64,000 nt of DNA, taken from Strigamia acuminata. Lineage: Eukaryota. Shown in pieces: positions 16,007 to 63,039 of the stretch. A program made the translations under genes and the position numbers. The stretch spans positions 28,334,001 through 28,398,000 of the forward strand of contig OX442314.1 in assembly GCA_949358305.1 (NCBI GenBank), in the 5' to 3' direction. Position 1 is the first letter of the stretch. The number at the start of each line of letters is the position of its first letter. Under the pieces are notes generated by a model. It worked only from the letters and a program-made list of their open reading frames with translations, was not told the DNA's origin and did not search any database.

Positions 16007-16090
16007 TTTCGATTTATTTCGAATATTTCGGACGGATTTAACGAGATTTAGTTTACGTGGAACGAAGCGATTACGATTGCCAATTAGTTT

Positions 16091-16120
16091 GCGCAGTGGA
16101 AGCGTGCTGGGCCCATAACC
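16091..16120 (-). promoter_or_regulatory. Extended half-tRNA-iMet primer-binding site
   Basis: Plus strand GCGCAGTGGAAGCGTGCTGGGCCCATAACC equals nt 10-39 of arthropod initiator tRNA-Met as I recall it, and directly abuts the LTR. Confidence 0.88.
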
Positions 16121-16209
16121 TGTTGTTATGTTGCTAAGAAAACGAATGTGATATGCACGGAACGACTTGGAGAGAACTGATTTTATTCAAATAAACATGT
16201 GGGTTATAT

Positions 16210-33400: not shown

Positions 33401-34144
33401 TACACAAGAAAGGTCATTTGTTGCTACTCTTTAACAGAGAATCAACTCTTTATTGTTTATTTCCCTGGCCAACCGTTGCTAAGAGAAAAATATGGAAGCT
33501 GCATGACGACATCACTGATTGTATTGGTAGCAAGACCCCTCCCCCCAACCCAACTTATATCATTAAAAACTAACAACTTCATGTGATCACTTTACATAAT
33601 ATCAACATAATATCCCATCCAGTATTACGAAAATAATAGAATTAAATACCTGTCTTATCTTAACGTGCTGTAAATTGCTTGAAATGTTGCTTTTTAACCA
33701 AAAATCTGTATAATTTTCAATTTTCACTGCTGCAGAAATCATGCTTCTCACTGGCAAAAGACATTCACGGTATCTTTTGAGTTTGCTTTGCACTGAAGAA
33801 TCTTCTGGCATTTTTTCCCAGTATTCGGACAAAGATCCGGTATCGAGACCAAAGAACCTCAATTCTGGGAACGTCATTTCACCTATTGGAACATATTCAA
33901 TTTCAACTTTGAAATGTCCATCAAAATAGAATTGGATTCTTTCCATTGTTTGGTAACAACAAATGGTGCCACAAACGATCAAAACAACGAACCAAACTGC
34001 CCGGACTAAACTACTCTTTTGTTTGTTGAAAACATTATCAATAAACTTCATACTATCGTTGCCTGACAGTGAAGTTTGCATTTCTTGCCGTACAAAATGA
34101 CGAATATGACTTCGACGAAGCCTAAGAGCTTTCACCGCAGTCAT
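21455..34144 (-). CDS. Double-domain DEG/ENaC gene, copy B; coding exons open, many intronic transposons
   Basis: Exons homologous to copy D (ORFs 33602-34144, 31745-31951, 30964-31149, 30092-30844, 21465-21902). The small exons checked by eye keep frame and GT-AG sites. Ends QFM|SIKSEVT-stop. Confidence 0.8.
22078..22237. mobile_element. 160-bp palindromic MITE in intron 11 of copy B
   Basis: AGGTGCATTCAATAAG..CTTATTGAATGCACCT, almost fully self-complementary. 3-bp TSD AGT defined by the empty site cgacagtctt in copy D. Confidence 0.92.
22882..24215. mobile_element. Non-autonomous hAT-like element in intron 9 of copy B
   Basis: TIR TAGGGATTGCAGTACCGG, 8-bp TSD AGAGTTAG, many subterminal GTACCG motifs, internal inverted repeat of about 165 bp. 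Confidence 0.92.
24865..26483. mobile_element. TA-flanked DNA transposon with TIRs of about 310 bp and an internal MULE-like transposase fragment
   Basis: TIR begins CAGGGTGTCCCAAAAGTCTGAACC, TA on both sides. Internal TNNGLEATNNVIK..T and AKNVPLGEKRKRGRPSKAKKAL. Confidence 0.85.
26486..26977. mobile_element. Tc/pogo-like MITE
   Basis: TIR CCGTACTGCCTCATTTAAACGCCCGG, TA flanks, subterminal AAACGCC repeats. Confidence 0.9.
28815..29258. mobile_element. piggyBac-like MITE
   Basis: TTAA-CCCTTCCAACCC..GGGTTGGAAGGG-TTAA. Confidence 0.88.
29647..29712 (+). other. Degenerate tRNA-derived (SINE-head-like) sequence
   Basis: A-box-like TGGTCCAGTGGTTAAGG and B-box GGTTCAAATCC at tRNA spacing. No convincing acceptor or anticodon stem. 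Confidence 0.5.
32317..33258 (+). mobile_element. Solo LTR (942 bp) in intron 1 of copy B
   Basis: TG..CA ends, 4-bp TSD GTCT, AATAAA near 33096. Absent from the same intron position in copy D. Confidence 0.85.
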
Positions 34145-37768: not shown

Positions 37769-38226
37769 TCCTACTCAATTAGGACACTTTATTGGGTCAT
37801 ACTTGTAAGTAGAAGAGAGGAAACACAAAAGAAAGGAAATAATTTATTTTGGAAATACATTCCACATGATAGTTTTAAGTTACAAAGCTGAGTAGACTAA
37901 CATTTCAAACCTTTTTTTCTCAAAACACGTCACGTGCAAAAATACATAGTCAAGCAGATTTTTCTAAACGCACCTACTTAAATTTTAAATGATTAAACAG
38001 GCATTAAAATTCTAACTATTTCTCTACATATTAAAGTTAAAATTATTCTAGTTTTTCTACAGGCTATACAGAGAAGTGTTACACACTAAAAAGAAGGATG
38101 TTGTACGATAAAACTGTAGCTATTTTTACCTTCAGAATGTTTCAGTCACTGAAACTAGAAAAACACTGTGCAAATACAGTAATTGATAATTAATAATTGG
38201 AAAGCTGCATTTCAGGTAACTTCAGA

Positions 38227-41200
38227 TTAGATAGCCTGAATTAATATCTTTTTTTTTAACTTTTTTAACTCGAGAATATAATAAGAGGTGTTCTTTTATA
38301 TTTATTCTGAGTACCATAAACTGATTTACTATCTTTTGCAATAATTCTGGAATTGCAAGAATTGAAAGGCCAAGCATTAGTGCAAAAGAATTTCCAATAT
38401 CGCAACACAATGCAACTGCAGTGTAGGATAATATTTGAGTAATCTGTTCAATTATATTATTCAGTGGACTTAAACCAAGAACCTTGAATGGAAATGCTTC
38501 AGGATGTTGAAAGTAAACATAAGTGTTAAATATTTGTTCTTCACAAGGAGGGTGACATCCACAGTCTTTCGTTATGTCAACTTTTAAGGAATTCTTCATG
38601 AATAGTTGTAATGAAGAAATTGCTTCTTCAGCATTTGCACAGATATTATTTGTTACATTATCCAAAAATGGTAACCTACAAATATAAAGACATATTGCAA
38701 CTCATTGCAGTAACTCATTGTGTCGCCCCTTTCGACTTTCGCCGTGGACTTCCTCCTAGTCCTCTTGTACCGGCCCATACAGAATCTTTAGTAATGTTGC
38801 TCACATGCTCACATGCTCACATTCAATTCTGTGAAGAATTACGACTCACTTGCATCGAACAAAATTATAAATCAATTTTTTGTAACAATCATCCTGGCAT
38901 AGTTTGTATTTGACGTGGTCAAGGCAAGATTGTGCTCGTAAGTTTAATCGAACGGTCTAAAATAGAGCAAATGTTTCAAGAATTTATACGTAATAAACTG
39001 ATGTACGAGTATTACTTTAATCATCTTAAATGTAATAACAACTAAGGTGTTATCTACAACACTTCTTCTACTTCTGAGAATTGATGGTATTTCAGCATCA
39101 TTTTGTCGAAAGTATATCTACAAAAGAAATTACGATTACCAAACAATTTCTACATTTATACAAATAACTAAACGAAACCACAGTACAAGTAGTTCACCTG
39201 CACAATTTACACCTCTGAACCCATCCATATAAGCAGTTTACCATTAACCATAACTTTCCCTGATACATACATTACGTTACGTTTTCCACATATTCTGAGT
39301 GGTGAAAAATATTATAAAGAACAGTCACCATAGCCAATCTGTACTACAGGACTATTACACAATTGATCAAGACATACAAGATGGCATAAAAGGTGGGCCA
39401 CTGATGTGTTTAGTCTTGTATGTGGGTCTAAAGACCATTTATTTGATCGATGTCGAATGTTTCTGATGTCAATTTAGCGTTTTATTTCACACGATGTAAA
39501 CTTTTACTGCTTTAGAATCAAATGCGGTATTTGTATTTGCTTTACGATTGTTCCGTACGAAATTCCGTACGATTTATGTATCTACTAATGAGATTTGTTC
39601 TATTTTTCAATGTTAATGTTATTATCTGGCACTAGAGTGCCACACTTGTTTTCCTTGCAAAATCCAAGATGGCGCAACACACGGGCGTGTGTTGCCCTGA
39701 CTGTTTATCCACATCAAAGTAATGTATTTTCGTTTAATTAAATTGTTTTTAGTAGTTTTAACAATTGTACTTACTTTAAAGCACCTTCTGTGCTCTTTTG
39801 TGCGCGAATAAGCGGCCTTAAGCCGCGCGCTTGTTACGAAACGTATTGCGACGTATCGCAAACGTTCGCGTCGCAGACCGACGCCATTACGGCAATTTGC
39901 CGCACGCTTCTCGGCGATATCTCGCCGATATCTGCGCCCCTCTGTTCTACATTTGGTAGCAGAGGGTGGTTGCTGCCTAATTCCACGTTTATTTCGTTAA
40001 TTTTCGACGTATTTGTCGCGAAATTCGCGACTTGTGCGCCGAAATTCGTTTATTTTCAGGTACCGACGATCCTCGCCTCGTCAGTTTCGTTTTACGAACG
40101 TCTACGACGTACCGCCGACGTTCCACACAGCCAGGGCTGTTTATCCTACGATCATTTGACTAATTTTGTCCAAATTCTCGCGGGTTTCGCGGTTTTTGAG
40201 GCAAATTTATTTATTTTTGCAGATTTTTCGACAAAACTGGATTTTCGACACTGCTTAGCACGAAGCGGCAGTTCCAACGAGAACCGAACACTAGATTGTT
40301 CGCCGCTTAGTTCCCCGGTGAACGGCGGTTATCACCGATCTGTGCAAGTGGACGAAGAGCCTCGATTTATTCGAGAAGATTTCGGATTTCACATCCGAAA
40401 TAGCGCTTTCTCCAGCTTTTCGAGAAAGCTGCGCCGTGCCTTCATTTGCACGAGGATCGCATCCGCGATTGATTCGTCTATTTCTCCTTCTTTCGACTTT
40501 ACCTTTGTTAGAATTAAGGGTATTTTGGTGTGGGACCTTATTAGATTCGACACAGCTCTTCGGGCATTCCGTCCACCGCTGTGTTTGTATTTTGTGACAA
40601 GGCTGAGCCCTGCGCCACCTAGCATTCCCGTGACCCCAGGAGGTCGTAAAGGACGCTAGGGGGACACTTGTCACAAGCTATCAGCTGATTGTAGCATCGG
40701 CTCCCCCTTTGAAGGTTTCCGCCTCGAAAGTGTGTGTGAAGTGCTTCAGTTCAGTGCTCCGAATCGAAGTCAGCATTTGTGCAGTGCTCCAGTATTTAAC
40801 GTACCATTCCTTGAGTCAGTGTGTTCGTCGCGTTGTGTCGAGTTTTCCACTCCACAATGAAGAAAGCGTCGGAATTATCGGGCGGAACGGTTCCCGTACT
40901 CACCGTTGGGAACTATGAATCCTGGCAGCGCTCGATGCGCATGCTTCTAAAATCCGAAGGTTTATGGAGACACGTGACCGAGGAAAAGGAGGCCGAGCAC
41001 CTTGCAACTTTAAATGAAAAGGAAAAGGACCGTTATGCTGTGAAAAAGGACAAAGCACTTGGTCACATATATATTCACGTCAGTGAAGCGAAACGATCGG
41101 CCCTCGACGCTTGCAATACACCTAAGCAAGCATGGGACAAGTTGGCCACCATTTATGCACCGAGTTCCAGGGCCAGACGAGCGGCCATGAGATGGGAATT

Positions 41201-44200
41201 TTTGAGCCTCCAACTCAAACCTGGTGAAGACATGCCTGATTTCATCGGTCGTGTGGACCATTTTGTTCAACAATTAAAAGACGTTGGTGAAAATGTCTCA
41301 GAAGAACATCATTCTTTCCAATATCTCAAGGGTTTACCACCGGAATATTCCCAGGCCACGTTTGCAGTATACCACTGGCCCGACGCAAACTTTACTCCAA
41401 CCAAAGTGGCGGAACAGTTATTGTCCGAGCAGATGCGTTTAAAGGCAATGGGATTGACTAACCAACCGTCTGCACATACCTCGAAAGGACAGTTTCGCCA
41501 GCGTAATCAATCTCGCGGACCTCGAGATTTGTCTAAAATCAAGTGTTTTAACTGTGATCAAATGGGTCACTACGCTAATCGTTGCCCTCAACCACCACGT
41601 GGAGACGGGAATCAGTCCACAGCTTCTGTTCAGCGTTCGTCGCGAAGTAAAAGCCGCAGACGTAATAAAAATGCCGCTGCCAAAGTTGAAGACAATCGCC
41701 CACGCGGAAGTTCACGTCCGAAGCGAGAGGGGACATTCTTTTGCAGTGCTCCGCAGATTATTGAGCGTCCTACGGTCCATTTCATGCAATCCAATGAATG
41801 GATCGTGGATTGCGGGGCAACAGATCACGTTTCCCACGTGCGTGACTGGTTTACAGACTTTTCAAATATCCAGCCATTTGATATTGCGTTAGGCCAAGGC
41901 AAATCACAGGTGACAGGACGAGGGACAGTTCAATTGCTCACGTCGGTCGATGGCGCGGATTGCACCATCAATTTGAAGAACGTTCTCTTTGCGCCGAATT
42001 TCGAAGCCAATTTGATTTCGGTGTCAAAGATTGACAAGACCAATCACCATGTGCATTTCTTTAATGGAGAGGTGAATGTTTATCAGACAGACTTCCGTTC
42101 ACCTATTATTCGTGCGAGAGAACGCGGTGGATTATATTATTTGGACGGTTTATGCTCAACGCATCTTGTGACGCCAACTGTTTCAACAATTACTCAACCG
42201 CCAGTCCAGATATCACTCCAACCTGTGCAAACACTTGTCACAACAGAAGTAGATTTCGACAACGTGCCAAAGCCAAAGAAGGGCAAATCAAAACTACGGG
42301 AAATTTCAGACTTTCGCATAACTTTGCCTGCTATCGAACCAGCGAAGCAAATGCCAGTTCAGCAAACTCCTAACCCTCCTTTACCTGCACAAGTCACCAT
42401 TCCACCGCCTACCCAGAAAAATCCCAATATCCAATCCTATGTTGACATCCTAAAGTCCTTGCCACATGCCTTTCTACCCAGCGAAACCTCTAATCCAAAA
42501 CAGAAGGTTGTTGCTAATCCTACTACAGTGAAGGATGCAACTGGTTTGTGGCACAGTCGTCTTGGCCACCTTCATACGAACGCCATGAAGTTGTTAGCGG
42601 CCAATGAACAAGTCCATGGAATGGAGCCAGCAGAAGTCCGTCAGGAGTTAGCCTGCAATGACTGTCGTATTGCTAAATCTACGAGGGCTTCTCACAAGCC
42701 GGACCCACATCCCATGACTTCAAAGCCATTAGATCTTTTACACATGGATTTGTGGGGGCCAGCCCCAATCACTTCCTTGGGCGGCTCGGATTATGTATTC
42801 ACCATAATTGACGATGCAACACGCTACACCTGGATTTTTCCTCTGACACATAAATCTCAGACATTTGCTGCATTTAAAGACTTCGTCGCCAGAGTTGAGC
42901 GGGTTCAGAACACTACCGTAAAAGCAATCAGATCCGATAGGGGCGGCGAATTCATGTCAAATGAATTCTTGCATTATCTTCAAGAAAAGGGTATCCAGGG
43001 ACAGCGAACTAACCCCGCATCGCCACAAATGAACGGGACAGCAGAAAGGATAAACCGGACAATGGCCGACAGTGTCCGATCGATTATTTCAGAAACAAAG
43101 CTCCCTGATGCACTCTGGGCCGAACTCGCTGTTACCTTCGGGTATATAAAGAATAGGAGCCCACATTCCAGACTGAAACATCAAGTCCCATACATTCTTT
43201 GGCGACAAAGAGATTTATCATTACGCCACCTACGTAAAATAGGATCCAAATGTTGGGTGCATTACACTGCACCGGGACGCAAGAAACTGGAAGCGCGTGC
43301 TTGGGAAGGATATCTTGTTGGCTACGCCACCAGCACTCGCGGCTACAGAGTCTGGAATCCAGTCGAAGACAGAGTATATGAATCTATTCACGTTAAAATC
43401 GACGAACATCAATCTTATCGGAAGTCTTTGCGAGGTTCAACGCAAAGACCTGATGAAACATTCCTTGAAAACGGCAATGGACAACAATCCGTATCATTTG
43501 ACGATAATGTCAGATATCATCGTTGGCCGAAAGGGTCTGATTCTGATCGCTCTGATAACAGCGATAACGATGATGACAATGGCAATGACAACCAGACTTC
43601 AACATCTGCGTCAATGCATACACCTCTTGTCTACTTGCCGCCTCCGACGACACCTGAGCAGCGATTATTGGATGCATGTGCGTTGGAGTTACCAAGCTCA
43701 GCTAGTTTGAGACAATCTCAATCGTATCCTATTCTATGGATTCCACCAGATGAGGACGATACAGATGCCGATATTAATAAAATAGATGAACTTTCAATTT
43801 ATCCTGGAACATCTGAATTCACTGGCACGTCGCCCGAACAATCGCCATGTCAAACTCCACCACCTTCACCTGCTCGGTCGCATCGCCAAACTCCACCAAC
43901 TTCGCCTGACCGATCACATCATCAATCTGAAGCGTCAGCTGGACAGTTGGCTCATCAATCTCCGCCCGGTTCGCCAGCACGATATATCACGTATCGTCGT
44001 AAAGGGCGTGGAGCAGACTCAGGAAGTCATACTGTACCAGTATTCGATGACACCCCAATGTCTCCTGCTCCGATTCCTCCCATAACAGGAACTGAAGTTC
44101 CGGCAGCGACTGAGCGTCATACAGCACATATGTGGCGACTTGTCGGCGGGAATTCCGAATGTAGTAATTGGAGACGCGAAGAGCATCTTAGAAAAGATCA

Positions 44201-47200
44201 AGTACCTGGGAAGATTAGGACCGACGTTTACTATTTTCCAATGCCTGGAATCAGACTCAGATCACCGAAAGACATTGAAGAATATTGCATGCTCAACAAC
44301 ATAGACTATGAGCCTGAACTTTTCACGTTCCGCAATATTGAATACACGTTGCCAATTATCCCAGGACCCCAACATGCAGCCCATCTTTGTCGAACGGAAC
44401 CGGCCTCTTATGCCGAAATACCCAAATTCACGGACGCTCCGAAATGGCGCGAAGCCATCGATGAGGAGCTGGGAACGTTCGTCGAGAGAGAGGTCTATGT
44501 AGAAGTCCCTAGACCACCTAACACTACCATCTTGGGCTGCAAGTGGATCTTCAAATTGAAGACGGATGTAACCGGCACCATCACACGATACAGGGCCCGT
44601 CTAGTCGCGCAGGGATTTCGTCAAACGCTGGGCGTGGATTATGATGAAGTTTTCAGCCCAGTGGTGAATTTCGTTTTAATTCGCCTATTCTTCTGTCTCC
44701 TGGTTGTGTTGCGTGGTTGGAAGGACGCCCATCTTGACATTAAATGTGCGTACCTGTATGGTGAGTTAAAACACAAGGTTTACATGAGGATCCCTGCAGG
44801 TGCCACATGCTCCGACCCCAACAACGTTTGGCTACTCGTAAAATCGCTCTACGGACTGCACCAATCAGGAAGGCAGTGGTTTGAAAAGCTGGATGAAGCC
44901 CTTCGAGATCTTGGATTTAAGAAGATGCCGGCATGTAACTGTGTTTACACATTTGGGAATTCTGCCGTAATGTTGATCTATGTGGATGATATTGTTCTCT
45001 TTTATGCTTCAGACAGCATTTTCAGCCAGTTACTTGCCCTCATTAGTTCAAAGTTCCAGATAGTTAATCTTGGTCCAATCACGAGACTACTGGGCGTTGA
45101 GTTCATCCGTGACGCAGGGCGCACGTTCATCACACAACGTGCGTACATCGCAAAACTTGTGAAGAAATTTGGTATTGCAACCAACAATCGCATCAAGGTT
45201 CCCGTGACTCCCGGCACCACACTCGTGAGAGGGTCAACCGAAAATCTGGCAGACTTTCCCTACAGGTCACTCATTGGATCATTATTATTCCTGGCGTCAA
45301 GAACGCGCCCCGACATTCTTTACTCAGTGATTGCTCTGGCACAATTCAACACATGCTACAATCAAACGCATATCCGTGCATTGCTACAGGTCATGCAATA
45401 CGTCGCCAACACTGCGGACTTGTGCATTGAGTTGTCCGGTTGCACATCATCACAACTGTGGGCATTCACTGACGCGTCGTGGGCAAGCGATCCAGAAACA
45501 TCCTTGAGCTTCGGTGGCTACATCACCTATGTTGGAAACGTACCGATCGGCTGGTCTTGCCGAAAACAGTCAACCGTGGCATGCTCAACAATGGAGGCGG
45601 AGTTTATCGCCCTTGTTGAGTGTGTCAAGGAGCTGTATTGGTTGAATCACGTGTACACCCAGTTTCCAGCTTTGAATCGCCTATCTCGACCCGTCGTTTA
45701 TTCCGACGCCCTGGCCAGCATACAGTTCACCTCAAACGATGTGGAGAACTCGAAGACTCGACATATCCGCGTTCGTTATCACTGGCTCAGGGAATGGTTC
45801 ACGGCGGGACGCTTTGATCTCCGAAAAGTGGAAAGCGAGTTCAATGTCGCGGACATTTTCACGAAATGGCTCAGTTCGGAGCGTCTACGATCGCTGATTG
45901 CCAACATCTTCAGATCATAGACCTGCACTACCTTCAATAATGACATTCCTAAGTTATTTTTCCCAAAGTTGAGGATAATCGAGTTCAGTGGGAATCCTCG
46001 GGCTTCCTTAGTGAAGAGTTCTTCAATATCAGTACCCGGCTTGATTATTCGCCTATATTATTTGTTTTTCTGAATATAACACACTGTAATTCCAGCATCT
46101 GTTAGCTATCTCCCCTGTAATTATTCACCATCGAAGAGGGGATTTGTGGGTCTAAAGACCATTTATTTGATCGATGTCGAATGTTTCTGATGTCAATTTA
46201 GCGTTTTATTTCACACGATGTAAACTTTTACTGCTTTAGAATCAAATGCGGTATTTGTATTTGCTTTACGATTGTTCCGTACGAAATTCCGTACGATTTA
46301 TGTATCTACTAATGAGATTTGTTCTATTTTTCAATGTTAATGTTATTATCTGGCACTAGAGTGCCACACTTGTTTTCCTTGCAAAATCCAAGATGGCGCA
46401 ACACACGGGCGTGTGTTGCCCTGACTGTTTATCCACATCAAAGTAATGTATTTTCGTTTAATTAAATTGTTTTTAGTAGTTTTAACAATTGTACTTACTT
46501 TAAAGCACCTTCTGTGCTCTTTTGTGCGCGAATAAGCGGCCTTAAGCCGCGCGCTTGTTACGAAACGTATTGCGACGTATCGCAAACGTTCGCGTCGCAG
46601 ACCGACGCCATTACGGCAATTTGCCGCACGCTTCTCGGCGATATCTCGCCGATATCTGCGCCCCTCTGTTCTACATTGTAGTCAGTTTTATTGTTTATAG
46701 AGGGATTAAGATCTGGAATTTCAGATATTAATACGGTAGCTAATGGTTCTCTTGATTTTTTGAATTGAATATTCCATCTTTTCATTGTTATCTTTACCGT
46801 ACGGACTACTTAAAATTGCAATAACATTTTCCCGTTCTATTTTAACTGAATTGAAGCTAAATAATGGTAGAATGTAGAATCATATCTTAACACCATATGT
46901 TATGTTTAAAAAATTGTATGAAAATTGGTCATGACATGAACTTAATTTTGACCAATATTCTACTTATTTGGCAAGAAGTTGTACATTACTTCATACTCAT
47001 GCTGATTACATATTTGATATCGCAATGGTAATGGTTGTAGACTAAAAACTATTAGTGAGGCAGTTCCGGCATATTTTAGTGGTGCTGCAACAATATAATG
47101 CTCGTATTAATATTTTATGTACAATTTATATAAAATGTCTATTTATCTACCGATGTCAGATTGAAAGCATGTTCCAGTTGGCATAGCTATTTTACTCCAA

Positions 47201-50200
47201 GTTACATTAGTTTTTACTCCAGCAGCCTGCAAAAACAGTTATGATCAACTTTCAGTTAAATAACATACGTTTGTTTATTAAATGATGGGTCCAAACAGGC
47301 GTGACATCGCAATTTTGCCACAGGGATTTTGAAGCAAGTATCCGCGATGTATATGCAGATGTGAACCCATCTATTGCAGAATACTTACCAAATAGGCATT
47401 GTCCATTGCTAATTTATTTATCAAAGGCGTTTGGAATCGCCACACATCTTCTATTGACGGCTTTTTAAGAATATTAGTCATGTTCATTAATTTGATAAAA
47501 TGAATCTCGCATTCATTCTTGCCAATTTCTTTAGCATATGTGCGCCTGTACTTAGTCATTAATGGTCCATCCATACATGCAATTAAATTGGGTAAATACA
47601 ATGTGTGATTTTCTTGAATGATTACCACATATCTTGTCGGCTCACTTATATATAATTTGATTCTTTCTTTACTCACATAAACTGCCAATATTGCAGAAGT
47701 AAATATAAGCATTAAATTCAATGTAGATTGCAGTAAAAGTATTTTTTGTGGCTGCTGCATCACACTTTGAGAAACATCTTTCTTTTTGTCGATGACCAAA
47801 TGCATTTGCTTAGTAGTTTTCTTTTTTATGCTCGCTTTAAGTTGAGCAGGTCTGATGTATTTAGACATAATGGGAAGAAATATTTGAGCAATTTCAATCA
47901 AAGACAGAAGAGAAAATCCCAAAGAGAATCCCAAATTGCCCCCAAAATCGATTAATAAGTTTGGAATGGTGTAAATGTAGGTTTCTGTCATTCTGACAAA
48001 CAATTCTTCCAATACTTTAAGATTGAGACTTATTAGATCTTTGCCACTTGGTTCATCTTGAAAATCTAACTTAAAACATAATAATTTTGAGAATGATGCA
48101 TAAAAATAGAAGATGTTATAGTTTAACTTGTATCAGAATAGGCTATAAACAAATAAACATTCCGTTCACAAGGTCTCAAGCAACCACATTCAAATGATGG
48201 CAGTGTAGTCGTTTCATGGAAAAATGCTTCCTTATACATTTCAGCCACAATTGATTTGTTTGACTCTAAACTGCAATCCATCAAATTTTTGTTGGACATA
48301 AAAGGCAACCTGGTAAGTCAAAAATCTATGAGTTTATCAATATTTAGATGTTGCATGCAATTAGACCTGCATCGTTGAGGAATTTTTTTCCTCACACAAT
48401 CTTCGTAGCATTGGGTTTCCTTTTTCTTATCCGGTTCACAATAGGGATGTCTCGAAGCTAAAAATTGATACTACCAAAAAACCAATGCAGAATTACTATT
48501 TTTGGTGATCCGTCACAATTAACAAGATTGAAAATCTGATATCTGATATACCATATTCAAACTTATATACTTTTGTGAAGCACTACAAATATCACAATAT
48601 GTTTAACCTAATTGAGCTTACACTTCGAATAAAAAATTGAATATCTGATTCAATTCCTAACGCCACCGAAAAAGTGTATTGGTAAGACATGACGCTAACT
48701 ATCGTACTCATCTAATATTCAATTGTGCAAAAGTTACAAACTCCAATAAAATAGTAAAAGATGAGATGAGATTCTTACCGAAATGTGTGGCATTTGGCAG
48801 TTGGTTCTATACGTTTTAAGGAGCATGTGTGATTTCATATTTAGTGCTAATTTTCGATCTATAAATTTAGTCAATAATATTAAAAGTTCAAAATTATTTT
48901 TTGTTTGTTTTTAATTCTAACCAGAATTAAAGACCAACGATCGTCCAGTTACATCATTTCGATAGCTTAGTGAAATTTTTGTGTTATCCTTTCTAGAAAT
49001 TCCTTCTTTAATTGTTGTTTCATGCAATACAGTTTTGCCCTGAAAAGTTATACGATTATAGATGTAATTCAGCAGATTACTGTATACGTATTTTGATGAT
49101 CCTGATTTCATTTTCAAATAAAATTGTTATCACCACTAAAGAATTATCTGTAATCAATTACTCTGGCTTGGCACATGCCAAAACTAGCCAAGTGTGTCTG
49201 GAGGATCAAAACTCCCAAGGCACACTTCATCCTAATTTAGCTAGGGTAATTTGCAGAAGCAACCGTTTTGGTGCAACAATTTCTTTGTTGCACCAAAACT
49301 AGCTTATGCGCACATTTATTGCGTGGGACCGGAGTGTGCTCTGCCCCAAATTTTGGAGCTTGAGCCTCGGCTTGAGCCCACTATCAACATCAACATCAAA
49401 TTGGAAACACATCGTCACTGCCTTGGAAAAAATTCAGGTATTGATCGTGTTTGTTTGATTAGTTGAGTCTCTGCTGCTTTAAATACATTTAGTGAAATTA
49501 GCCACTTGCCTCTGTGTGTGCTAAATACCATTTAGCACACGGACTTTGCGATCTTTGGGTAAGGGGCCGTCCATAAATTACGTAACGCCTGGAGGGGGGG
49601 AGGGGGTTTCAAATTTTGTTACGGGTTTGTTACGACGGGGAGGGGGGGGGGGTTCTTAATAACTTTTTTTTTAACATTTTTAAAATTTTTTTTTAAATTT
49701 TTGAAAATTTTTAAAAAATTTTGAAATTTTTAAAAAATTTTGAAATTTTTGAAAATTTTTTGCAAAATTTTTGAAAATTTTGAAAACTTTTGTATTATAA
49801 GCTTGTATCAAATTTTTTTTTTTGGGGGGGGGGGGTGGTGAGTTTTGTTACGTAATATAATATTCTAGGGGGGGTTTGTGGATTTGTTACGACCTTGTTA
49901 CAAGGGGGGAAGGGGGTCTAAAAATCGAAAAATCAGCGTTACGTAATTTATGGACGGCCCCTAACGCCCAAAGCCTTGCGCTCGTCGCCGACCATCGTGA
50001 GCCGCCATTGAGCTTGCTCTGGCGCTCGCCAACGCCGCCCGAGCAACCTTACGTTCGTTGCTGCCATCTCGAATCACCGTTGAGCGTGCTCCGGAGTTCG
50101 CCTTCGCTGCTCGAGCGATCTGTTGTGCAGAATTCGTTCACTCCATATTTGCGCACAACAATCTGTTGTGCGCCTTTCTTTGTTTCCTTTTCATTTTATT

Positions 50201-52120
50201 GTTTCGTAGTTATTCCTAATTTACCGGTATTAATACTATAATTATTTGTATTTAACCGAATAAGGGGCCGTCCATAAATTACGTAACGCTCCAAGGGGTG
50301 GGAGGGGGTTTTAGATTTTGTTACGGGTCATTAGTAAGGGAAAGGGGGGGGGGTTCTGAATGATGTTACGGTTACGGTCCATGAAAAAAATTTTTTTTCA
50401 TGTTTTAAAATTGAAAATATACGCAGTTTTGAGACTCAATTTTGAAAATTTTTTGGGGGGTGATTTTAGTTTTATTACGTAATTAGGGGGGTGGGGGTTT
50501 GGGAATTTGTTACAGCCTTGTTACAGAGGGGGGGGAGGGGGTCTAAAATGCCCAAAATTGGCGTTACGTAATTTATAGACGGCCCCTAAAATATAATCTG
50601 TTCTGTTTTATATTTAACCAATTGTTTTATATGAGTATGCACACCAGGGGGTCCAGTTGTGGACAAGAGCAGGTGTGTGAATAATTTTCATTCCCCTTAC
50701 CATAAAAAAATTATGACATTATGTGCATGAATTTACTGCCATTTACTGTCATGTCCATGAATAAAATTGAACAATTCCGGTTCTACTAACACTTGTTCTG
50801 CATTGTTTTTTAATAATAACAATTTTTACAAGAATCTGAATACCGGTACTTATGATGACAACTGTATAAAATAACCGGACTCAAAAATCATTGGTCGAGC
50901 CAGTTTACTACTAACTCCAGACTGTAAACTACTACTAAGAGAAGTAGTTTTGATTTTTATTTATCTTTGAGATGGTTATGACTACTACAGTTAATGTAAT
51001 TTTGATTTTTCTTATTATAAAATGTTATTTCCATCATTTAAATGAAGTTTTACGCATATAAAAATGTCAAACTCATGTTTGTTATGTTTATTGGTTACTT
51101 CGTCTGGAATTTTGAATTTTTGGCTGTTGCCTAGGCAATCGATTACAATGTCTGTACATTGTAATGCAATTCTGGTGTTTGGGTCTACTTTTCCGGATCA
51201 CTACACCAGTAAACTGGCTCGACCAATGGGACTGTTGTTGATTTTTGAGTCCGGTTACAGGATGCTTCAGCATCGTACTAACCAATTTCCTGACATCCCA
51301 TACTTGCCCAGGAGATGGAATAATTCAGATAGAGCTCATGATTTAGTGTCTAAATTCATTTCTTGTTTTACACAAGAAAGGTCATTTGATGCTACTCTCT
51401 AACAGAGAAGCAAATCCTTATTGTTTCTTTCCCTGACCAACCGTTGCTAACGGAAAAATATGGAAGCTGCATGACGACATCAGTGATTGTATTGGTAGCA
51501 ATACTTGTACAAGCCTAACTTTTATCATTAAAAGCTAACAATTACTAGAACAATTTTATGTGGTGACAATACATAATATCAACATAATATCAACATAATA
51601 TCCCATCCGGTATTAATAAAATAATAAGATTAAATACCTGTCTTATCTTGACGTGCTGTAAATTGCTTGAAATGTTGCTTTTTATCCAAAAATCTGTATA
51701 ATTTTCAATTTTCACTGCTGCAGAAATCATTCCTCTCAGTGGCAAAACACAAACACGTAATGTTTCATACATAGAACCTTCTTTCATTATTTTCCAGTAT
51801 TCGGACAAAGATCCGGTATCGAGACCAAAGTACCTGAATTCTGGGTATGTCATTTCACCTATAGGAACATATTCAATTTCAACTTTGATATGTCCATCAA
51901 AATAGAATTGAATTCTTTCTATTGTTTGGTAACAACAAATGACGCCACAAACGATCAAAACAACGAACCAAACTGCCCGAACTAAACTACTCTTTTCTTT
52001 GTTTAAAACATTATCAATAAACTTCAAACTATCACAGCCGGACACTGAAGTTTGAATTTCTTGTTCCACAAAACGACGAACAAGACTACGACGAAAACGC
52101 AAACTTTCTAATTCTTTCAT
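38227..52120 (-). CDS. Double-domain DEG/ENaC gene, copy C; coding exons open, 7.26-kb copia in intron 9, solo LTR and MITEs in intron 1
   Basis: All 13 exons recognisable by homology to copy D (ORFs 51590-52120, 48917-49117, 48123-48308, 47371-48012, 38222-38665) with splice sites retained. N-terminus is diverged (MKELESLRFRRS). Last exon is shortened to AI-stop. Confidence 0.78.
39954..39971 (+). promoter_or_regulatory. Primer-binding site complementary to the 3' end of initiator tRNA-Met
   Basis: TGGTAGCAGAGGGTGGTT just after the 5' LTR. Animal tRNA-iMet ends in CUCUGCUACCA. Confidence 0.88.
40857..45920 (+). CDS. Copia Gag-Pol polyprotein (about 1687 aa): Gag, CCHC knuckle, protease, integrase, MBD, RT, RNase H
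   Basis: CFNCDQMGHYANRC; WIVDCGATDH; WHSRLGH; HMDLW..SDRGGEF..AER; WRREEHLRK..RTDVYYF..GIRLRS (MBD-like); LDIKCAYL..YVDD; TDASW..EAE..ADIFTK. Uninterrupted. Confidence 0.96.
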   Translation: MKKASELSGGTVPVLTVGNYESWQRSMRMLLKSEGLWRHVTEEKEAEHLATLNEKEKDRYAVKKDKALGHIYIHVSEAKRSALDACNTPKQAWDKLATIYAPSSRARRAAMRWEFLSLQLKPGEDMPDFIGRVDHFVQQLKDVGENVSEEHHSFQYLKGLPPEYSQATFAVYHWPDANFTPTKVAEQLLSEQMRLKAMGLTNQPSAHTSKGQFRQRNQSRGPRDLSKIKCFNCDQMGHYANRCPQPPRGDGNQSTASVQRSSRSKSRRRNKNAAAKVEDNRPRGSSRPKREGTFFCSAPQIIERPTVHFMQSNEWIVDCGATDHVSHVRDWFTDFSNIQPFDIALGQGKSQVTGRGTVQLLTSVDGADCTINLKNVLFAPNFEANLISVSKIDKTNHHVHFFNGEVNVYQTDFRSPIIRARERGGLYYLDGLCSTHLVTPTVSTITQPPVQISLQPVQTLVTTEVDFDNVPKPKKGKSKLREISDFRITLPAIEPAKQMPVQQTPNPPLPAQVTIPPPTQKNPNIQSYVDILKSLPHAFLPSETSNPKQKVVANPTTVKDATGLWHSRLGHLHTNAMKLLAANEQVHGMEPAEVRQELACNDCRIAKSTRASHKPDPHPMTSKPLDLLHMDLWGPAPITSLGGSDYVFTIIDDATRYTWIFPLTHKSQTFAAFKDFVARVERVQNTTVKAIRSDRGGEFMSNEFLHYLQEKGIQGQRTNPASPQMNGTAERINRTMADSVRSIISETKLPDALWAELAVTFGYIKNRSPHSRLKHQVPYILWRQRDLSLRHLRKIGSKCWVHYTAPGRKKLEARAWEGYLVGYATSTRGYRVWNPVEDRVYESIHVKIDEHQSYRKSLRGSTQRPDETFLENGNGQQSVSFDDNVRYHRWPKGSDSDRSDNSDNDDDNGNDNQTSTSASMHTPLVYLPPPTTPEQRLLDACALELPSSASLRQSQSYPILWIPPDEDDTDADINKIDELSIYPGTSEFTGTSPEQSPCQTPPPSPARSHRQTPPTSPDRSHHQSEASAGQLAHQSPPGSPARYITYRRKGRGADSGSHTVPVFDDTPMSPAPIPPITGTEVPAATERHTAHMWRLVGGNSECSNWRREEHLRKDQVPGKIRTDVYYFPMPGIRLRSPKDIEEYCMLNNIDYEPELFTFRNIEYTLPIIPGPQHAAHLCRTEPASYAEIPKFTDAPKWREAIDEELGTFVEREVYVEVPRPPNTTILGCKWIFKLKTDVTGTITRYRARLVAQGFRQTLGVDYDEVFSPVVNFVLIRLFFCLLVVLRGWKDAHLDIKCAYLYGELKHKVYMRIPAGATCSDPNNVWLLVKSLYGLHQSGRQWFEKLDEALRDLGFKKMPACNCVYTFGNSAVMLIYVDDIVLFYASDSIFSQLLALISSKFQIVNLGPITRLLGVEFIRDAGRTFITQRAYIAKLVKKFGIATNNRIKVPVTPGTTLVRGSTENLADFPYRSLIGSLLFLASRTRPDILYSVIALAQFNTCYNQTHIRALLQVMQYVANTADLCIELSGCTSSQLWAFTDASWASDPETSLSFGGYITYVGNVPIGWSCRKQSTVACSTMEAEFIALVECVKELYWLNHVYTQFPALNRLSRPVVYSDALASIQFTSNDVENSKTRHIRVRYHWLREWFTAGRFDLRKVESEFNVADIFTKWLSSERLRSLIANIFRS
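49563..49961. mobile_element. PIF/Harbinger-like MITE
   Basis: TIR GGGGCCGTCCATAAATTACGTAACGC, TSD TAA. Confidence 0.9.
50264..50586. mobile_element. PIF/Harbinger-like MITE, second copy
   Basis: Same TIR with one mismatch, TSD TAA. Confidence 0.9.
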
Positions 52121-57161: not shown

Positions 57162-60100
57162 TTACGTAACTTCAGATTTGATGCACTGAATTAATATTTT
57201 TGAATTAGGTTTTTTTAACTCGAGAATATGATGGGAGATGTGCTTTTATATTTATTCCGAGTACCATAAACTGATTTAGTATCTTTTGCAATAATTCTGG
57301 AATTGCAAGAATTGAAAGGCCGAGCATTAATGCAAAAGAATTTCCAATATCGCAACACAATGCAACTGCAGTGTAGGATAATATTTGTGTAATCTGTTCA
57401 ATTATGTTATTCATTGGAATTAAACCAACAACCTTGAATGGAAATGCTTCAGGATGTTGAAAATAAACATAAGTGTTAAATATTTGTTCTTCACAAGGAG
57501 GATGACATCCACAGTCTTTCGTTATGTCAACTTTTAAGGAATTCTTCATGAATAGTTGTAATGAAAAAATTGCTTCTTCAGCATTTGCACAGGTATTATT
57601 TGTTACATTATCCAAAAATGGTAGCCTAAAATTACAAAGACTAATTACAACACAGTGCAGTAACTCGTAGTGTCACCTCCTTCGACATTCCCCATGGACC
57701 TCCTCCGAGTCCTCTTGTACCTGTTCATACAGAATCTTTAGTAATGTTTGTAAATTTAGATTCTAAATTGACCAAAAACTTAAAAAAATATATAATTTCA
57801 GATAGACACACGACAGTCTTATTTTGCATTCTGATGTCACCCTGATTGATGGTCTAATCCAGTGCAGTCCGCACTCCCTGAACTCTGGTAAAGAATTTTT
57901 ATTTCTAACTCTAGAACTCTTAGATTTTGAGGGCCCAAGTAGCAATATTCAAATCTGTGAAGAATTACGACTCACTTGCATCGAACAAAATTATAAATCA
58001 TTTTTTTATAACAATCTTCCTGGCACTGTTTGTATTTGTCATGGTCAAGACAAGGTTGTGCTCGTAAATTTAATCGAACGGTCTAAAAAAAAGCAAATGT
58101 TTCAGAGTTTATATGTAATAAACTGATGTATTACTTTAATCATTTGAAATGTACTAATGACAAAGGTGTTATCTACAACACTTCTTCTACTTCTGAGAAT
58201 TGATGGTATTTTAGCATCATTTAGTCGAAAGTATATCTACAAAAGAAATTATGATTAACTACAATTTCAACATTTTCACATGTAACTAAACACAACCACA
58301 GTACAAGCAGTTCGTCTGGGCAATTTACACCTCTGAACCCATCCATCTAAGCAGTTTACCATTAACCATGACTTTCCTTAAACGTACATTACGTTACGTT
58401 TTCCACATACTCTCAGTAGTCAAAAATATTATAAAGAACAGTCACCATAACCAATCTGTATTGAAAGACTAGTACACAATTGATCAACAGCAGAAAAGTT
58501 GGCACGCTAATGTGTTTAGTCTTGTAGTCCGTTTTATTGTTTAGAGAGATTAAGACCTGGAATTTCAGATATTAGTAGATACTATTCTACCAGATTTTTT
58601 GAATTTAATATTCAAACTTTTTATTGTCAATTTTACCATATGGAATACTTAAAATTTAAAAAATTTAAAATTTACGATTTTCTAGTTCTCTTTTAACTGA
58701 ATTGTAGCTGAATATTGGTAGAATGTAGAATGATATCTTAACACCATGATTCATTCCTTTATTTTATCTTTAAAAAATTGTATGAAAATTGATCATGGCA
58801 TAAAATAAGTTTTGACCAATATTTCATGTATTAGGCAAGGAGTTGTAGATTACTTCATACTCATGCTGATTACATATTTGATCTTTCACTGGTTGTAGAC
58901 TAAAAAATATTATTGAGGCAGCTCCGGCATATTTCAGTGGTGCTGCAACAAGATAATGCTCGTATTAATATTTCATGTACAATTTATATAAAACGACAAG
59001 TTATGTACCGATGTCAGATTGAAAGCAAGTTCCAGTTGGCATAGCTATTTTACTCCATGTTACATTACTTCTTACTCCAGTAGCCTGCAAAAACATTTAT
59101 GATCAACTATAATCAACCTACATTACGTTTGATATATAGCAGATCCTCAATTTACGAACATCCAAAATTTCAGAAATACCAACTACAAATTAGTTTACGT
59201 TGTTGGCACTAGGATAAGCGCAAAACTCACGCTCTTATTGTTGTTTAATATAAACCATTTATTTATTTATAATAGACAAAAATCATAAAAACAATATGAT
59301 TCAAGAATGTATTCTTTAATTACTGGGGTGAACAATTTTTTCACTTTGTACATCCTTGACCTAAGAACAAGTTCTTGCAACAGTACTTGTTCGAAAGTTG
59401 AGGACCTGCTGTGTATATGCAGAATGCTGGGTGCATTCGTACTCAATCCTTGATATTGGCGCCATCTTACAAACACTGGTAACAATACTGTTTAATTGAC
59501 ATACAATAACAACTAAATACATTTTTGAGTGATATTTGTCATTACTGCTCTAAATTTTATTTGGTTAATAAACCTTTCGTGATTGGACGATACGTTATGT
59601 GTATCATAATGGGTCCACACCTGCGTAACATCGCGATTTTGAAGCACGTTTCCGCTATGTTATACAGATGTGAACCCATCTTTAGCGAAATTCTTACGAA
59701 AGTAGCAGCTTTCATTGCTACTTTATCCATCACAGGCGTTTGGAATCGCCACACATCTTCTATTGACGGTTTTTTGTTGTCGATAGTCATGTTCATTAAA
59801 TTGATAAAATGAATCTTGCATTCATTCTTGCCAATTTCATTAGCATATTTCCTCCTTTTCGTAGTCATGTAGGGTCCATCCATACATGCAATTAAATTAG
59901 GTAAATACAATGTGTAATTTTCTTGAATAATTACCACATATCTTGTTGGCTCACTCATATATAATGCGATTCTTTCTTTGCTCACATAAACTGCCAAATT
60001 TGCAGAAGTAACTATAAGAATTAAATTCAATGTAGATTGCAGTAGAAGTTTTTTTTGTGGCCGCTGCATCACACTTTGAGAAACGTCTTTCTTTTTGTCG

Positions 60101-62665
60101 ATGACCAAATGCATTTGCTTAGTAGTTTTCTTTTTTATGCTCGCTTTAAGTTGAGCAGGTCTGATGTATTTAGACAAATTGAGAAGAAACATTTGAGCAA
60201 TTTCAATCAAAGACAGAAGAGAAAATCCCAAAGAAAATCCCAAATTGCCCCCAAAATCAATCAATAAGTTTGGAATGGTGTAAATGTAGGTTTCTGTCAT
60301 TCTGACAAACAATTCTTCCAATACTTTTAGATTGAGACTTATTAGATCTTTGCCATTTGGTTCATATTGAAAATCTAACTTAAAACATGATAATTTTGTA
60401 AATTATGCATAAAAATAGAAGATATTATAGTTTAACTTGTATCAGAATAGAATATAAACAAATAAACATTCCGTTCACAAGGTCTAAAGCAACCACATTC
60501 GAACGATGGCAGTGTAGTCGTTTCATGGAAAAATGCTTCCTCATACATTTCAGCCACAATTGATTTGTTTGACGCTAAACTGCAATCCATTAAAGTTTTG
60601 TTGGACATAAAAGGCAACCTGGTAAGTAAAACATATATGAGTTTATCAATATTTGATGTTGCATGCAATTAGACCTGCATCGTTGAGGAGTTTTTTTCCT
60701 CACACAATCTTCGTAGCATTGGGTTTCCTTTTTCTTATCCGGTTCACAATAGGGATATCTCGAAGCTAAAAATTGATACTATAAAAACAAATGCAGCATT
60801 ACTATTGTTGGTGATCCATCACAATAAACAAGATTGAAAAACTGATATCTAATATATTCAAACGTATAGACTTTTGTAATGCACTACAAATTTCACCTAT
60901 TATACAACAGATTAATTGAGCTTACACTTCGAATAAAAAATTGCATATCAGATTCAATTCCTGACGCCACCGTAAACGTATATTGGTAAGACATGACGCC
61001 AACTACCGCTGTCATCTAATATTCAAGTGTGTCAAAATAAAAGTCTACGTTACAAACTCCAATAAAATAATAAAAGATGAGATTCTTACCGTAATCTGTG
61101 GGTTGACACAGTTGGTTCTATTCGTTTTAAAGAGCAAGTGTAATCTCATGTTTAGCGCTAATTTTCGATCTATAGATTTAGCCAATAATACTAAAGGTTC
61201 AAAATTATTTTACTTTGTTTTTATTTCTAACCAGAAGTTAAGACCAAAGATCGTCCAATTACATCATTTCGATAGCTTAGTGAAATGTTTGTGTTATCAT
61301 TTCTACTTGTAGAAATTCCTTCTTTAATTGTTGTTTCATGCAATACAGTTTTTCCCTGAAATGTTACACGATTATAGATGTAATTCAGCACATTACTGTA
61401 TACGTATAGAATGCACACTACACATACTGTACATTTGACGCCGATAATCAAGTAGAGGGCACCTGTACCGAGATACAATCTGCGTTTGGTTTTTATGTTA
61501 CATGTCCCTTTATTAAAATGCTTTCGCCAAATGTATGGACATAAACAGACCAATGGCCCAGAGATAAGCCCTATCCTACGATGGGGTGATCCTACCCAGT
61601 AAGGAAGAGGAGAGGGTTGAGTAGTGCAGTTGTGGGAGTCCAGTTGTGGACAAGAGCAGGGGTGAAAATAATTTTAATTCCCCATACTATAAAAAATTAA
61701 GGCACCATGTCCATGAATTTACTGTCATTTACTGTCATGTCCATGAATAAAATTGAACAATTCCGGTCCTACTAACTAAATGTTTTTTAATAATTTTTAC
61801 AACTGTCTGAATACTTAAGATTACAACTGTAGGATGCTAGGTTTCAGCATCACAGTGACCAATTCCCTGGCATTCCATCTTTGCCCAGAAGATGGAATAA
61901 TTCAGACAGTGCTCATGATTTAGTGTCTAACTTCTTGTTTTACACAAGAAAAGTCATTTGTTGCTACTCTTTAACAGAGAATCAACTCTTTATTGTTTAT
62001 TTTCCTGGCCAACCGTTGCTAAGAAAAAAATATGAAAGCTGCATGAGTGATTGTATTGGTAGCAACACAACCCAACTTATATAATTAAAAACTAACAATT
62101 TCATGTGGTCACAATACATAATATCAACATAATATCCCATCCAGTATTGCGAAATAATAGAATTAAATACCTGTCTTATCTTGACGTGCTGTAAATTGCT
62201 TGAAATGTTGCTTTTTAACCAAAAATCTGTATAATTTTCAATTTTCACAGCTGCATAAATCATGCATCTCACTGGCAAAATACATTCATGTAATCTTTCG
62301 AGGTTGCCTTGCACTGAAGAAACTTCTGGCATTTTTTCCCAGTATTCGGATAAAGATCCGGTATCGAGACTAAAGTACCTAAATTCTGAGTATGTCATTT
62401 CACCTATTGGAACATATTCAATTTCAACCTTGAAATGTCCTTCAAAGTAGAATTGGATTCTTTCTATTGTCTGGTAACAACAAATGGTGCCACAAACGAT
62501 CAAAACAACGAACCAAACTGCCCGGACTAAACTTCTCTTTTCTTTGTTGAAAATATTATCAATAAACTTCAAACTATCATTGCCTGACAGTGAAGTTTGC
62601 ATTTCCTGCCGTACAAAACGACGAATATGACTTCGACGAAGCCTAAGAGCTTTCACCGCAGTCAT
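57162..62665 (-). CDS. Double-domain DEG/ENaC (pickpocket/ASIC-like) channel gene, copy D; 13 exons, about 836 aa, apparently intact
   Basis: Hand-built GT-AG exons: 62665-62171, 61355-61232, 61169-61090, 61015-60926, 60778-60675, 60618-60437, 60374-59698, 59084-59009, 58942-58854, 58236-58135, 58082-57976, 57625-57265, 57185-57162 (2511 nt, all phases compatible, no internal stop). Domain 1: TM1 RAVWFVVLIVCGTICCYQTIERIQFYF, Cys-rich thumb YCEPD..QCYEDC..RCRLPF..DC..ECGCFRPCE, TM2 LLIDFGGNLGFSLGFSLLSLIEI. Domain 2: TM1 followed by ERIALY.EPT..LYLPNLIAC, GTCFQ, PCLD..QCQEDC..RCKLPF..DCGCHPPCEE, TM2 LCCDIGNSFALMLGLSILAIPEL. Confidence 0.85.
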
Positions 62666-63039
62666 TTTGCATCAAATTCTACCGTGGTAATGACATAGCT
62701 TCGACAGCTAGCTTAACTCGTGTCTCCGCAAAAAATCCAATTTTTAATTAAAATTTACAATTTGTATATGAAAATCCAGTATCGAAACGCCACTCCCTAA
62801 GTGCGAGTCAGGAAAGAAAATTCAATAAATTTAAATTAATTTCAGCGAGAGTATACCGATATGTAATTTAGGTATGTAATTTATGTAAATTATAGTGCAG
62901 CAAGTTATGAAAATAAATTGAAAAAATTATTGAGTTTCTGTCTCCGCAAGAAATACAATTTTTAATTAAAATTTATAATTTTATATGAAAATTCGAGAAT
63001 GGGTTGCTGTAGCGACGCAAGATAGCGATGCAAGATAAC

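What the first reader, a model, noticed from the sequence alone, without database searches (positions are those of the whole stretch)
57265..62171. The two halves share five intron positions and phases (0-1-0-0-2)
Seen in the hand-built model. Domain 1: RQ|GKT (0), GRSLVLTS|D (1), PQIT|MT (0), FIRS|YQFL (0), RC-R|LPF (2). Domain 2: ATF|ATG (0), GTCFQSDI|A (1), EYE|IYF (0), MIK|TVRL (0), RC-K|LPF (2). Inference: the gene arose by an old DNA-level tandem duplication and fusion of one intron-containing ancestor. The halves have since diverged almost beyond recognition, so the fusion long predates the recent four-copy expansion.
Basis: partly seen in the sequence, partly recalled or inferred. Interest (0 to 1): 0.72.

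Follow-up and report, generated by a model that had tools for sequence, protein, structure and literature searches.

The report
Centipede double-subunit ENaC channel gene
This gene, likely from a soil centipede, is predicted to encode two DEG/ENaC ion-channel subunits joined end to end, with four of five predicted introns at matching spots in both halves; the double form likely comes from one old fusion shared by a whole centipede gene family, which is odd because these channels are normally built from three separate subunits.

Summary
Observation largely confirmed. The gene (62665-57205, minus strand) models as 12 exons and 848 aa, holding two complete DEG/ENaC units; 44 of 44 junctions in the four tandem copies are GT-AG. 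No RNA holder was listed, so splicing is unconfirmed.

Interpretation partly supported. The fusion is old: 17 Strigamia maritima gene models span a similar subunit-to-subunit junction, and first halves and second halves form separate clades. But the introns look clade-wide, so they cannot show self-duplication; trees lean (not significantly) to fusion of two already separate paralogs.

The larger point: a natural two-subunit chain in a trimeric channel family, nearest to the centipede sensors BRTNaC1 and PDPNaC1, with an intact pore helix in half 1 and altered pore glycines in half 2. It most likely fills two seats of a trimer. Ten literature searches found no description; the scan's notes hold no look-alike on other DNA.

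The parts
57205..62665 (-). Copy 4 of the two-unit DEG/ENaC gene: 12 exons, 848 aa, open frame
   Evidence: Model translates without internal stop; 11 of 11 introns GT-AG
62171..62665 (-). Exon 1: N-terminus, TM1 and finger of half 1
   Evidence: Pfam ASC 12-59, E 2e-4, under the curated cut-off; hydropathy peak 45-63
61356..62170 (-). Intron 1, phase 0 (1-3 codons off its half-2 counterpart, intron 7)
61232..61355 (-). Exon 2 (124 nt; 118 in the other copies; 76 nt in half 2)
61170..61231 (-). Intron 2, phase 1, same position as intron 8
61090..61169 (-). Exon 3
61016..61089 (-). Intron 3, phase 0, six codons after a Cys as in intron 9
   Evidence: weaker
60926..61015 (-). Exon 4
60779..60925 (-). 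Intron 4, phase 0, same position as intron 10
60675..60778 (-). Exon 5: first half of the thumb
60619..60674 (-). Intron 5, phase 2, same position as intron 11
60437..60618 (-). Exon 6: rest of the thumb of half 1
60375..60436 (-).
   Evidence: 62 nt, GT-AG in 4 of 4 copies; acceptor matches a break in the S. maritima model P0001
59698..60374 (-). Exon 7, the fusion exon: TM2 of half 1, basic linker of about 40 aa, TM1 and finger of half 2, one open frame
   Evidence: 677 nt in 4 of 4 copies; 18 of 38 library hits span it; DNA contigs cover it
59085..59697 (-). Intron 7, phase 0
59009..59084 (-). Exon 8
58943..59008 (-). Intron 8, phase 1
   Evidence: break in P0001 at this donor
58854..58942 (-). 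Exon 9
58237..58853 (-). Intron 9, phase 0
   Evidence: matching breaks in P0001, P0039, P0014
58135..58236 (-). Exon 10
58083..58134 (-). Intron 10, phase 0
57976..58082 (-). Exon 11: first half of the thumb of half 2
57626..57975 (-). Intron 11, phase 2
57205..57625 (-). Exon 12: thumb, TM2 of half 2 (Asn and Ala in place of two pore glycines), stop
   Evidence: Pfam ASC 333-453, E 2.3e-6; motif
38222..52120 (-). Copy 3, intact, same 11 introns; intron 9 holds a 7.2-kb LTR element
21465..34144 (-). Copy 2, intact (855 aa), same 11 introns
5408..10951 (-). Copy 1, likely pseudogene: stop at codon 71 and a frameshifting deletion in the last TM2

Best explanation
The gene is predicted to encode two whole DEG/ENaC subunits in one chain, likely made by a single old DNA-level fusion of two neighbouring, intron-bearing genes of a centipede ENaC clade, and the chain likely fills two adjacent seats of a three-seat sensory cation channel. 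Shown in the DNA: two ASC units in one frame, joined inside one exon, with matching introns. Inferred origin: the introns are the clade's inherited pattern, so both halves carry them; the two genes had probably already separated before joining (about 60:40 over self-duplication). After the fusion the double gene radiated, and recently this lineage made at least four tandem copies. Inferred mechanism: TM2 of half 1 runs through a basic cytoplasmic linker of about 40 residues into TM1 of half 2, like an engineered concatemer; half 1 keeps a standard pore helix, half 2 has lost the glycines that form the gate and a selectivity site in PDPNaC1 and so likely works only beside other subunits and tunes the pore; the third seat is most likely filled by a single-unit relative (about 0.4), less likely by half of a second chain. 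The stimulus is untested; heat, protons or a chemical cue is the guess from the nearest characterised relatives.
For: Model and introns. Junction conserved: 18 of 38 hits span TM2-linker-TM1, 17 of the 18 are Strigamia maritima models, one is unnamed; the stretch from the first TM2 Asp to the Pro after the next TM1 is 90-116 residues in the two-unit type. One fusion: half 1 clade 98/99 and 98/96, half 2 clade 94/94 and 97/96. Introns family-wide: breaks in models P0001, P0039, P0014 and single-unit P0024 fall on the same sites. Both halves kept: 8 thumb cysteines in each; dN/dS 0.65 and 0.59, intervals below 1; AlphaFold model of the relative P0009 (pLDDT 73, pTM 0.69) shows the same order of elements twice, and its half 2 matches BRTNaC1 at Z 20.5 (rmsd 6.5, 334 aligned) and PDPNaC1 at Z 20.3 (rmsd 4.0, 316 aligned). 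Pore: half 1 keeps the Gly matching PDPNaC1 Gly375 in 14 of 14 relatives and Gly378 in 12 of 14; of 6 relatives' half 2, none keeps both (numbering; roles from PMC12714832). ASIC1a concatemers tolerate in one or two subunits pore changes that are non-functional in all three (PMC5449180).
Against: No RNA evidence for any junction or for a single transcript. Intron 1 is not exact and intron 3 is exact only by anchors, the relatives-only profile and 1 of 3 MAFFT modes. The order 'paralogs first, fusion later' is not significant (AU p 0.38, 0.14), rests on only two single-unit relatives, and branches are long. Model breaks are indirect evidence of introns, picked by eye from four pairs. TM1 of half 2 did not pass the hydropathy cut-off in copy 4 (3 of 4 expected helices found). 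dN/dS is only moderately below 1. No partner is identified; nothing here tests assembly or gating.
Confidence: 0.6

Rival explanations
1. One reading: one intron-bearing gene duplicated in tandem and the two fresh copies fused; all divergence between halves came afterwards.
For: Four of five introns exact; an exclusive half 1 + half 2 clade is not rejected; the repeat-type Strigamia models P0002, P0003, P0017 and the Polypedilum model P0015 do show units that are each other's nearest kin, so this route occurs.
Against: Half 1 + half 2 in 47 and 9 of 1000 bootstrap trees versus 841 and 871 for half 2 with single-unit and repeat-type relatives; intron 5 shows through in single-unit P0024; intron 6 and the intron 1 offset differ between halves.
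Confidence: 0.35
2. Same origin, other assembly: three chains build two tethered trimers (or larger arrays), with no single-unit partner.
For: Two-unit models outnumber single-unit ones among the Strigamia hits (the query favours them); nearest characterised relative PDPNaC1 is a homotrimer (PMC12714832 abstract).
Against: Nothing tested it; a trimer rich in half 2 would carry two or three altered pore helices.
Confidence: 0.2
3. Half 1 forms an ordinary homotrimer and half 2 is a tethered accessory or ligand-binding unit outside the pore.
For: Pore glycines are kept in half 1 and altered in half 2; TM1 of half 2 is weakly hydrophobic in copy 4.
Against: Half 2 keeps the Asp, Gly-x-Ser and Glu of TM2, all thumb cysteines and a cysteine pair that half 1 lost, and is under the same constraint.
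Confidence: 0.15
4. Two separate neighbouring genes or an assembly or annotation artefact, not a fusion.
For: No RNA support; relatives are automated gene models, many of them broken.
Against: The junction lies inside one 677-nt exon, open in 4 of 4 copies, covered by DNA contigs of two runs of one study, and is 59% identical in the S. maritima model P0001.
Confidence: 0.04
5. The intron match is chance or parallel gain at favoured sites.
For: The phase string alone is weak (about 0.007); halves aligned alone match only intron 5.
Against: Three or more exact matches arose in 1 of 2,000,000 random placements; four are exact on an independent profile.
Confidence: 0.01

Closest known systems
BRTNaC1, heat-activated channel of Scolopendra subspinipes mutilans (PDB 8ymr, 8ymw, 8ymx; PMC9974506)
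   Same: Best solved match of the two-unit family profile, E 1e-45 over a whole unit; fold match Z 20.5 to half 2 of relative P0009
   Different: One unit of 431 aa per chain; here two units about 18-23% identical in one chain
PDPNaC1, proton-dissociation channel of the same centipede (PDB 9jf7; PMC12714832)
   Same: E 1e-43; Z 20.3; lacks the His-Gly motif, as both halves do; half 1 keeps its pore glycines
   Different: 421-aa homotrimer with eight introns (positions not seen); half 2 here has Asn and Ala at its Gly375 and Gly378
DEG/ENaC superfamily, Pfam PF00858 (ASIC, ENaC, FaNaC, insect pickpocket)
   Same: Two TM helices, cysteine-rich thumb, TM2 Gly-x-Ser motif in each half
   Different: Described members carry one unit per chain; pickpocket 26 scores far lower than the centipede channels (E 1e-10 versus 1e-45)
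Engineered ASIC1a concatemers (PMC5449180)
   Same: Subunits joined tail to head give working channels and tolerate pore changes in one or two positions
   Different: Artificial, three units, identical subunits; here natural, two units, highly diverged
Channels with fused repeats, such as two-pore-domain K+ channels, TPCs and four-repeat Nav/Cav (recalled, no call)
   Same: Internal repeats with fixed, unlike positions around one pore
   Different: There the repeat number divides the four-fold symmetry; two does not divide three

Membership tests
DEG/ENaC (PF00858) | ASC domain match | tested here: met
   Exons 7 and 12 pass the Pfam cut-off (37.5 and 27.4 bits versus 23.6), exon 1 falls just under (21); 3 of 6 exons tested gave no ASC match. 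Each spliced half matches a relatives-only profile at E 2e-47 and 2e-73
DEG/ENaC (PF00858) | Two transmembrane helices flanking a large extracellular domain, per unit | tested here: inconclusive
   3 of 4 expected helices pass the hydropathy cut-off in copy 4; the fourth aligns with TM1 of relatives and is helical in the relative's model
DEG/ENaC (PF00858) | Cysteine-rich thumb | tested here: met
   8 cysteines on the same states in both halves
DEG/ENaC (PF00858) | TM2 with Asp, Gly-Gly, Gly and Gly-x-Ser | tested here: inconclusive
   Complete in half 1 (D398, G401, G404, G408, S410, E416); half 2 keeps D801, G811, S813, E819 but has N804 and A807
DEG/ENaC (PF00858) | Pre-TM1 His-Gly motif | tested here: not met
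   Absent in both halves (sequence); also absent in the functional PDPNaC1 (PMC12714832 section 10), so not required for membership
DEG/ENaC (PF00858) | One unit per polypeptide | tested here: not met
   Two units in one frame; this is the variant
DEG/ENaC (PF00858) | Trimeric, cation-conducting channel | not testable with these tools
   No assembly or current data
Centipede BRTNaC1/PDPNaC1 group | Nearest by sequence and fold | tested here: met
   Top PDB hits for the family profile and for the relative's model
Centipede BRTNaC1/PDPNaC1 group | One clade with them in a tree; heat or proton gating | not tested
Insect pickpocket subfamilies | Falls in a ppk subfamily | tested here: inconclusive
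   Groups apart from the one insect protein in the tree; ppk26 scores far lower; ppk subfamilies were not sampled
Internal duplication of one gene | Halves are each other's nearest relatives | tested here: inconclusive
   47 and 9 of 1000 bootstraps; AU p 0.38 and 0.14

The most novel reading that the evidence does not exclude
Soil centipedes run a large sensory receptor family on a '2+1' plan: an old, fused, asymmetric DEG/ENaC dimer with a silent or tuning second pore helix, completed by a swappable third subunit; arthropods have fused DEG/ENaC subunits several times independently, up to natural single-chain trimers in a shrimp and a midge.
Probability: 0.35. Interest if true: 0.82.

Novelty: new variant of a known kind. 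Interest (0 to 1): 0.62.

Why it matters
DEG/ENaC channels are trimers of separate subunits, and subunit order and stoichiometry are hard to fix experimentally; labs build concatemers to do it. A natural, old and expanded two-unit family gives ready-made asymmetric channels in which each seat evolved on its own, and poses a clear symmetry puzzle (two units, three seats). It sits next to the two known centipede antennal sensors, in a lineage reported to lack known photosensory genes, so it is a candidate sensory repertoire. The intron match itself is real but ordinary: it marks homology, not the route of fusion.

Tried and rejected
No genome was held for this window, so no tree with single-unit genes of the same genome. 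No RNA holder listed; the two runs laid behave as DNA, cover the introns and show no splice joints; their summed depth and many variant contigs hint at more paralogs but give no copy number. The word-index search with the fusion exon found nothing among 1176 candidates; with family alignments it found only 3 and 5 proteins. Aligning the halves without relatives matched only intron 5. The first AlphaFold run (6 sequences) gave pLDDT 40 and was discarded. No third ASC unit lies in the window (that profile included window rows). No alternative in-frame splice site near introns 1 or 7 removes their offset. The exon map of PDPNaC1 is in an appendix too large to be read; a review likely to list ENaC introns is not held; a search for intron positions in ASIC/ENaC returned 0 papers. 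ESM Atlas returned only single-unit-sized ASC clusters. No complex prediction was run: the spliced window protein cannot be submitted and a distant stand-in would pass by likeness to solved trimers. Earlier scan notes: nothing by place or sequence, three unrelated notes by words.
Full report
Setting. The window is AT-rich eukaryotic DNA with four tandem copies of one minus-strand gene, separated and interrupted by LTR elements. No genome was held. The nearest named proteins are all from the centipede Strigamia maritima, the best 59% identical over 312 aligned residues, so the source is likely a geophilomorph centipede (inference).

Gene model. Copy 4 models as 12 exons from 62665 to 57205 and gives 848 aa with no internal stop. 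The exons map onto the other three copies with nearly the same lengths, and 44 of 44 introns are GT-AG. Copies 2, 3 and 4 are open and 84-85% identical; copy 1 has a stop at codon 71 and a frameshift in the last TM2. An eleventh intron (phase 1, 60436-60375) lies in half 1 only. Exon 7 carries TM2 of half 1, a basic linker and TM1 plus finger of half 2 in one frame, so the fusion does not depend on a predicted splice. No RNA holder was listed and the two runs laid behave as DNA: the junctions remain a model, supported by conservation.

Do the introns match? The halves aligned alone match only at intron 5. With relatives, introns 2, 4 and 5 are on the same column in 3 of 3 MAFFT modes, intron 3 in 1 of 3, intron 1 in none but within 1-4 residues. 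Profile-profile alignment gives posteriors 0.87, 0.97 and 0.999 for introns 2, 4, 5, places intron 3 two residues off at 0.2, and leaves intron 1 unaligned. The cleanest test is a profile of 23 domains of relatives with no window rows: introns 2-5 land on identical states in both halves in 3 of 3 intact copies, intron 1 on states 148 and 151. Counting from conserved residues gives the same picture. Chance is negligible (1 of 2,000,000 for three exact matches). Verdict: four exact, one near, one extra.

What the match means. Of 38 proteins found with the fusion exon, 18 span the junction; 17 are S. maritima models and one is unnamed. Those aligned are only 20-27% identical to P0009. In a tree of 42 domains, first halves form one clade (98/99) and second halves another (94/94); a mixture model on 27 of those rows agrees (98/96, 97/96). 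Left out as too partial or redundant: copies 1 and 2, P0001, P0005, P0013, P0019, P0022, P0029, P0039. So one fusion preceded a deep radiation, and the four copies are its latest twig. Four of the 18 (P0002, P0003, P0017, P0019) look like a separate repeat type; the three placed in the tree have units that are each other's nearest kin. Breaks in automated models reveal introns indirectly: P0001 breaks at introns 6, 7, 8 and 9, P0039 reads through a short intron six codons after the same Cys as intron 9 and breaks at intron 4, P0014 ends at intron 9, and the single-unit P0024 resumes at the site of intron 5 (four pairs, read by eye). The sites therefore look clade-wide. I also recall that vertebrate ASIC1 has introns at or near the sites of introns 4 and 6; this is from memory and no call confirmed it (one search found no paper). 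Shared introns thus exclude a retrocopy but cannot tell self-duplication from fusion of two paralogs. The trees lean to the second: half 1 + half 2 in 47 and 9 of 1000 bootstraps, half 2 + single-unit and repeat-type relatives in 841 and 871, but AU tests do not reject the first (p 0.38, 0.14), branches are long and only two close single-unit genes were sampled.

Anatomy. Both halves keep eight thumb cysteines; half 1 of this lineage lost both members of another cysteine pair that half 2 keeps. Both are under similar moderate constraint across the three intact copies (dN/dS 0.65, interval 0.47-0.90; 0.59, 0.42-0.85), with the finger and beta-ball of half 1 near 1. The closest solved structures are BRTNaC1 and PDPNaC1 (E 1e-45 and 1e-43, next family 2e-14). 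An AlphaFold model of the relative P0009 from 34 sequences (pLDDT 73, pTM 0.69) repeats the full order of elements twice around a low-confidence linker; its second half matches BRTNaC1 at Z 20.5 (rmsd 6.5, 334 aligned) and PDPNaC1 at Z 20.3 (rmsd 4.0, 316 aligned). An earlier run with 6 sequences failed. Half 1 was not matched separately and packing could not be measured. In PDPNaC1, Asp372 and Gly375 form constrictions and Gly378 sets selectivity (PMC12714832). Half 1 keeps the Gly375 position in 14 of 14 relatives and Gly378 in 12 of 14; of six relatives' half 2, none keeps both, and the window has Asn and Ala. Against: TM1 of half 2 missed the hydropathy cut-off in copy 4.

Mechanism. Inferred: the chain inserts with four TM helices and acts as a natural concatemer, filling two neighbouring seats. 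ASIC1a concatemers tolerate in one or two subunits pore changes that are non-functional in three (PMC5449180), which would let half 2 drift. The third seat is open: a single-unit relative (about 0.4), tethered double trimers (0.2), or half 2 outside the pore (0.15). PDB titles list human ENaC beta-gamma dimers, so dimer intermediates exist in the family (titles only). A sensory role is a guess from the nearest characterised relatives and from the expansion pattern described for mite ENaCs (PMC5203786).

Novelty. Ten searches found no description of natural two-unit DEG/ENaCs; a slash spelling of the family name could not be searched and most subscription papers are not held. What I saw of each paper: keyword passages of PMC5203786, PMC9974506, PMC8438182, PMC9822975, PMC11152070, PMC5449180, PMC10507113, PMC7067487; zero ENaC hits in the main text of PMC4244043 and PMC5850775; passages, section 10 and a keyword search of readable supplements of PMC12714832, whose appendix with the exon map could not be read. 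PMC8438182 notes 46 insect PPKs with three to five predicted TM helices without, in the passages seen, calling them fusions. Unseen supplements of these papers may list the Strigamia models. The models themselves are public but named 'uncharacterized'.

Verdict. Real feature; the intron claim is about four-fifths right and is ordinary as evidence of homology; the inference of self-duplication is unproven. The value lies in the architecture: an old, expanded, asymmetric two-subunit DEG/ENaC family. New variant of a known kind, interest 0.62.

Noticed in passing
window 39421-46675 (+), inside intron 9 of copy 3: Full-length Copia-like LTR element: identical 531-bp LTRs with TG..CA ends, 5-bp target duplication, open 1701-aa frame; a very recent insertion that leaves the host exons intact.
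   Followed up: partly
P0023 and P0033 (Halocaridina rubra models): Three ASC units per chain; first, second and third units each pair by position between the two proteins, suggesting an old natural single-chain trimer. Gene models only.
   Followed up: partly
P0015 (Polypedilum vanderplanki model, 1460 aa): Three ASC units that are each other's nearest kin: an independent internal triplication, or merged neighbouring genes.
   Followed up: partly
P0002, P0003, P0017, P0019 (Strigamia maritima models): A second multi-unit type with similar repeats; P0002 and P0003 show parts of at least three units, all with intact pore glycines.
   Followed up: partly
window 5408-10951 (-): Copy 1 is likely a pseudogene: stop at codon 71 and a frameshifting deletion in the last TM2.
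   Followed up: yes
window 12087-17720 (-) and 1-4661 (-): Further LTR-retrotransposon frames, Copia-like and Gypsy-like by inspection of the translations, next to copy 1.
   Followed up: no
window 57000-62800, runs X1 and X2: Many variant contigs with other intron interiors suggest more close paralogs than the four in the window; depth gives no copy number.
   Followed up: no
copy 4, residues 98 and 201: Half 1 of this lineage lost both cysteines of a pair kept in half 2 and in most relatives' half 1; its finger and beta-ball evolve at dN/dS near 1.
   Followed up: partly
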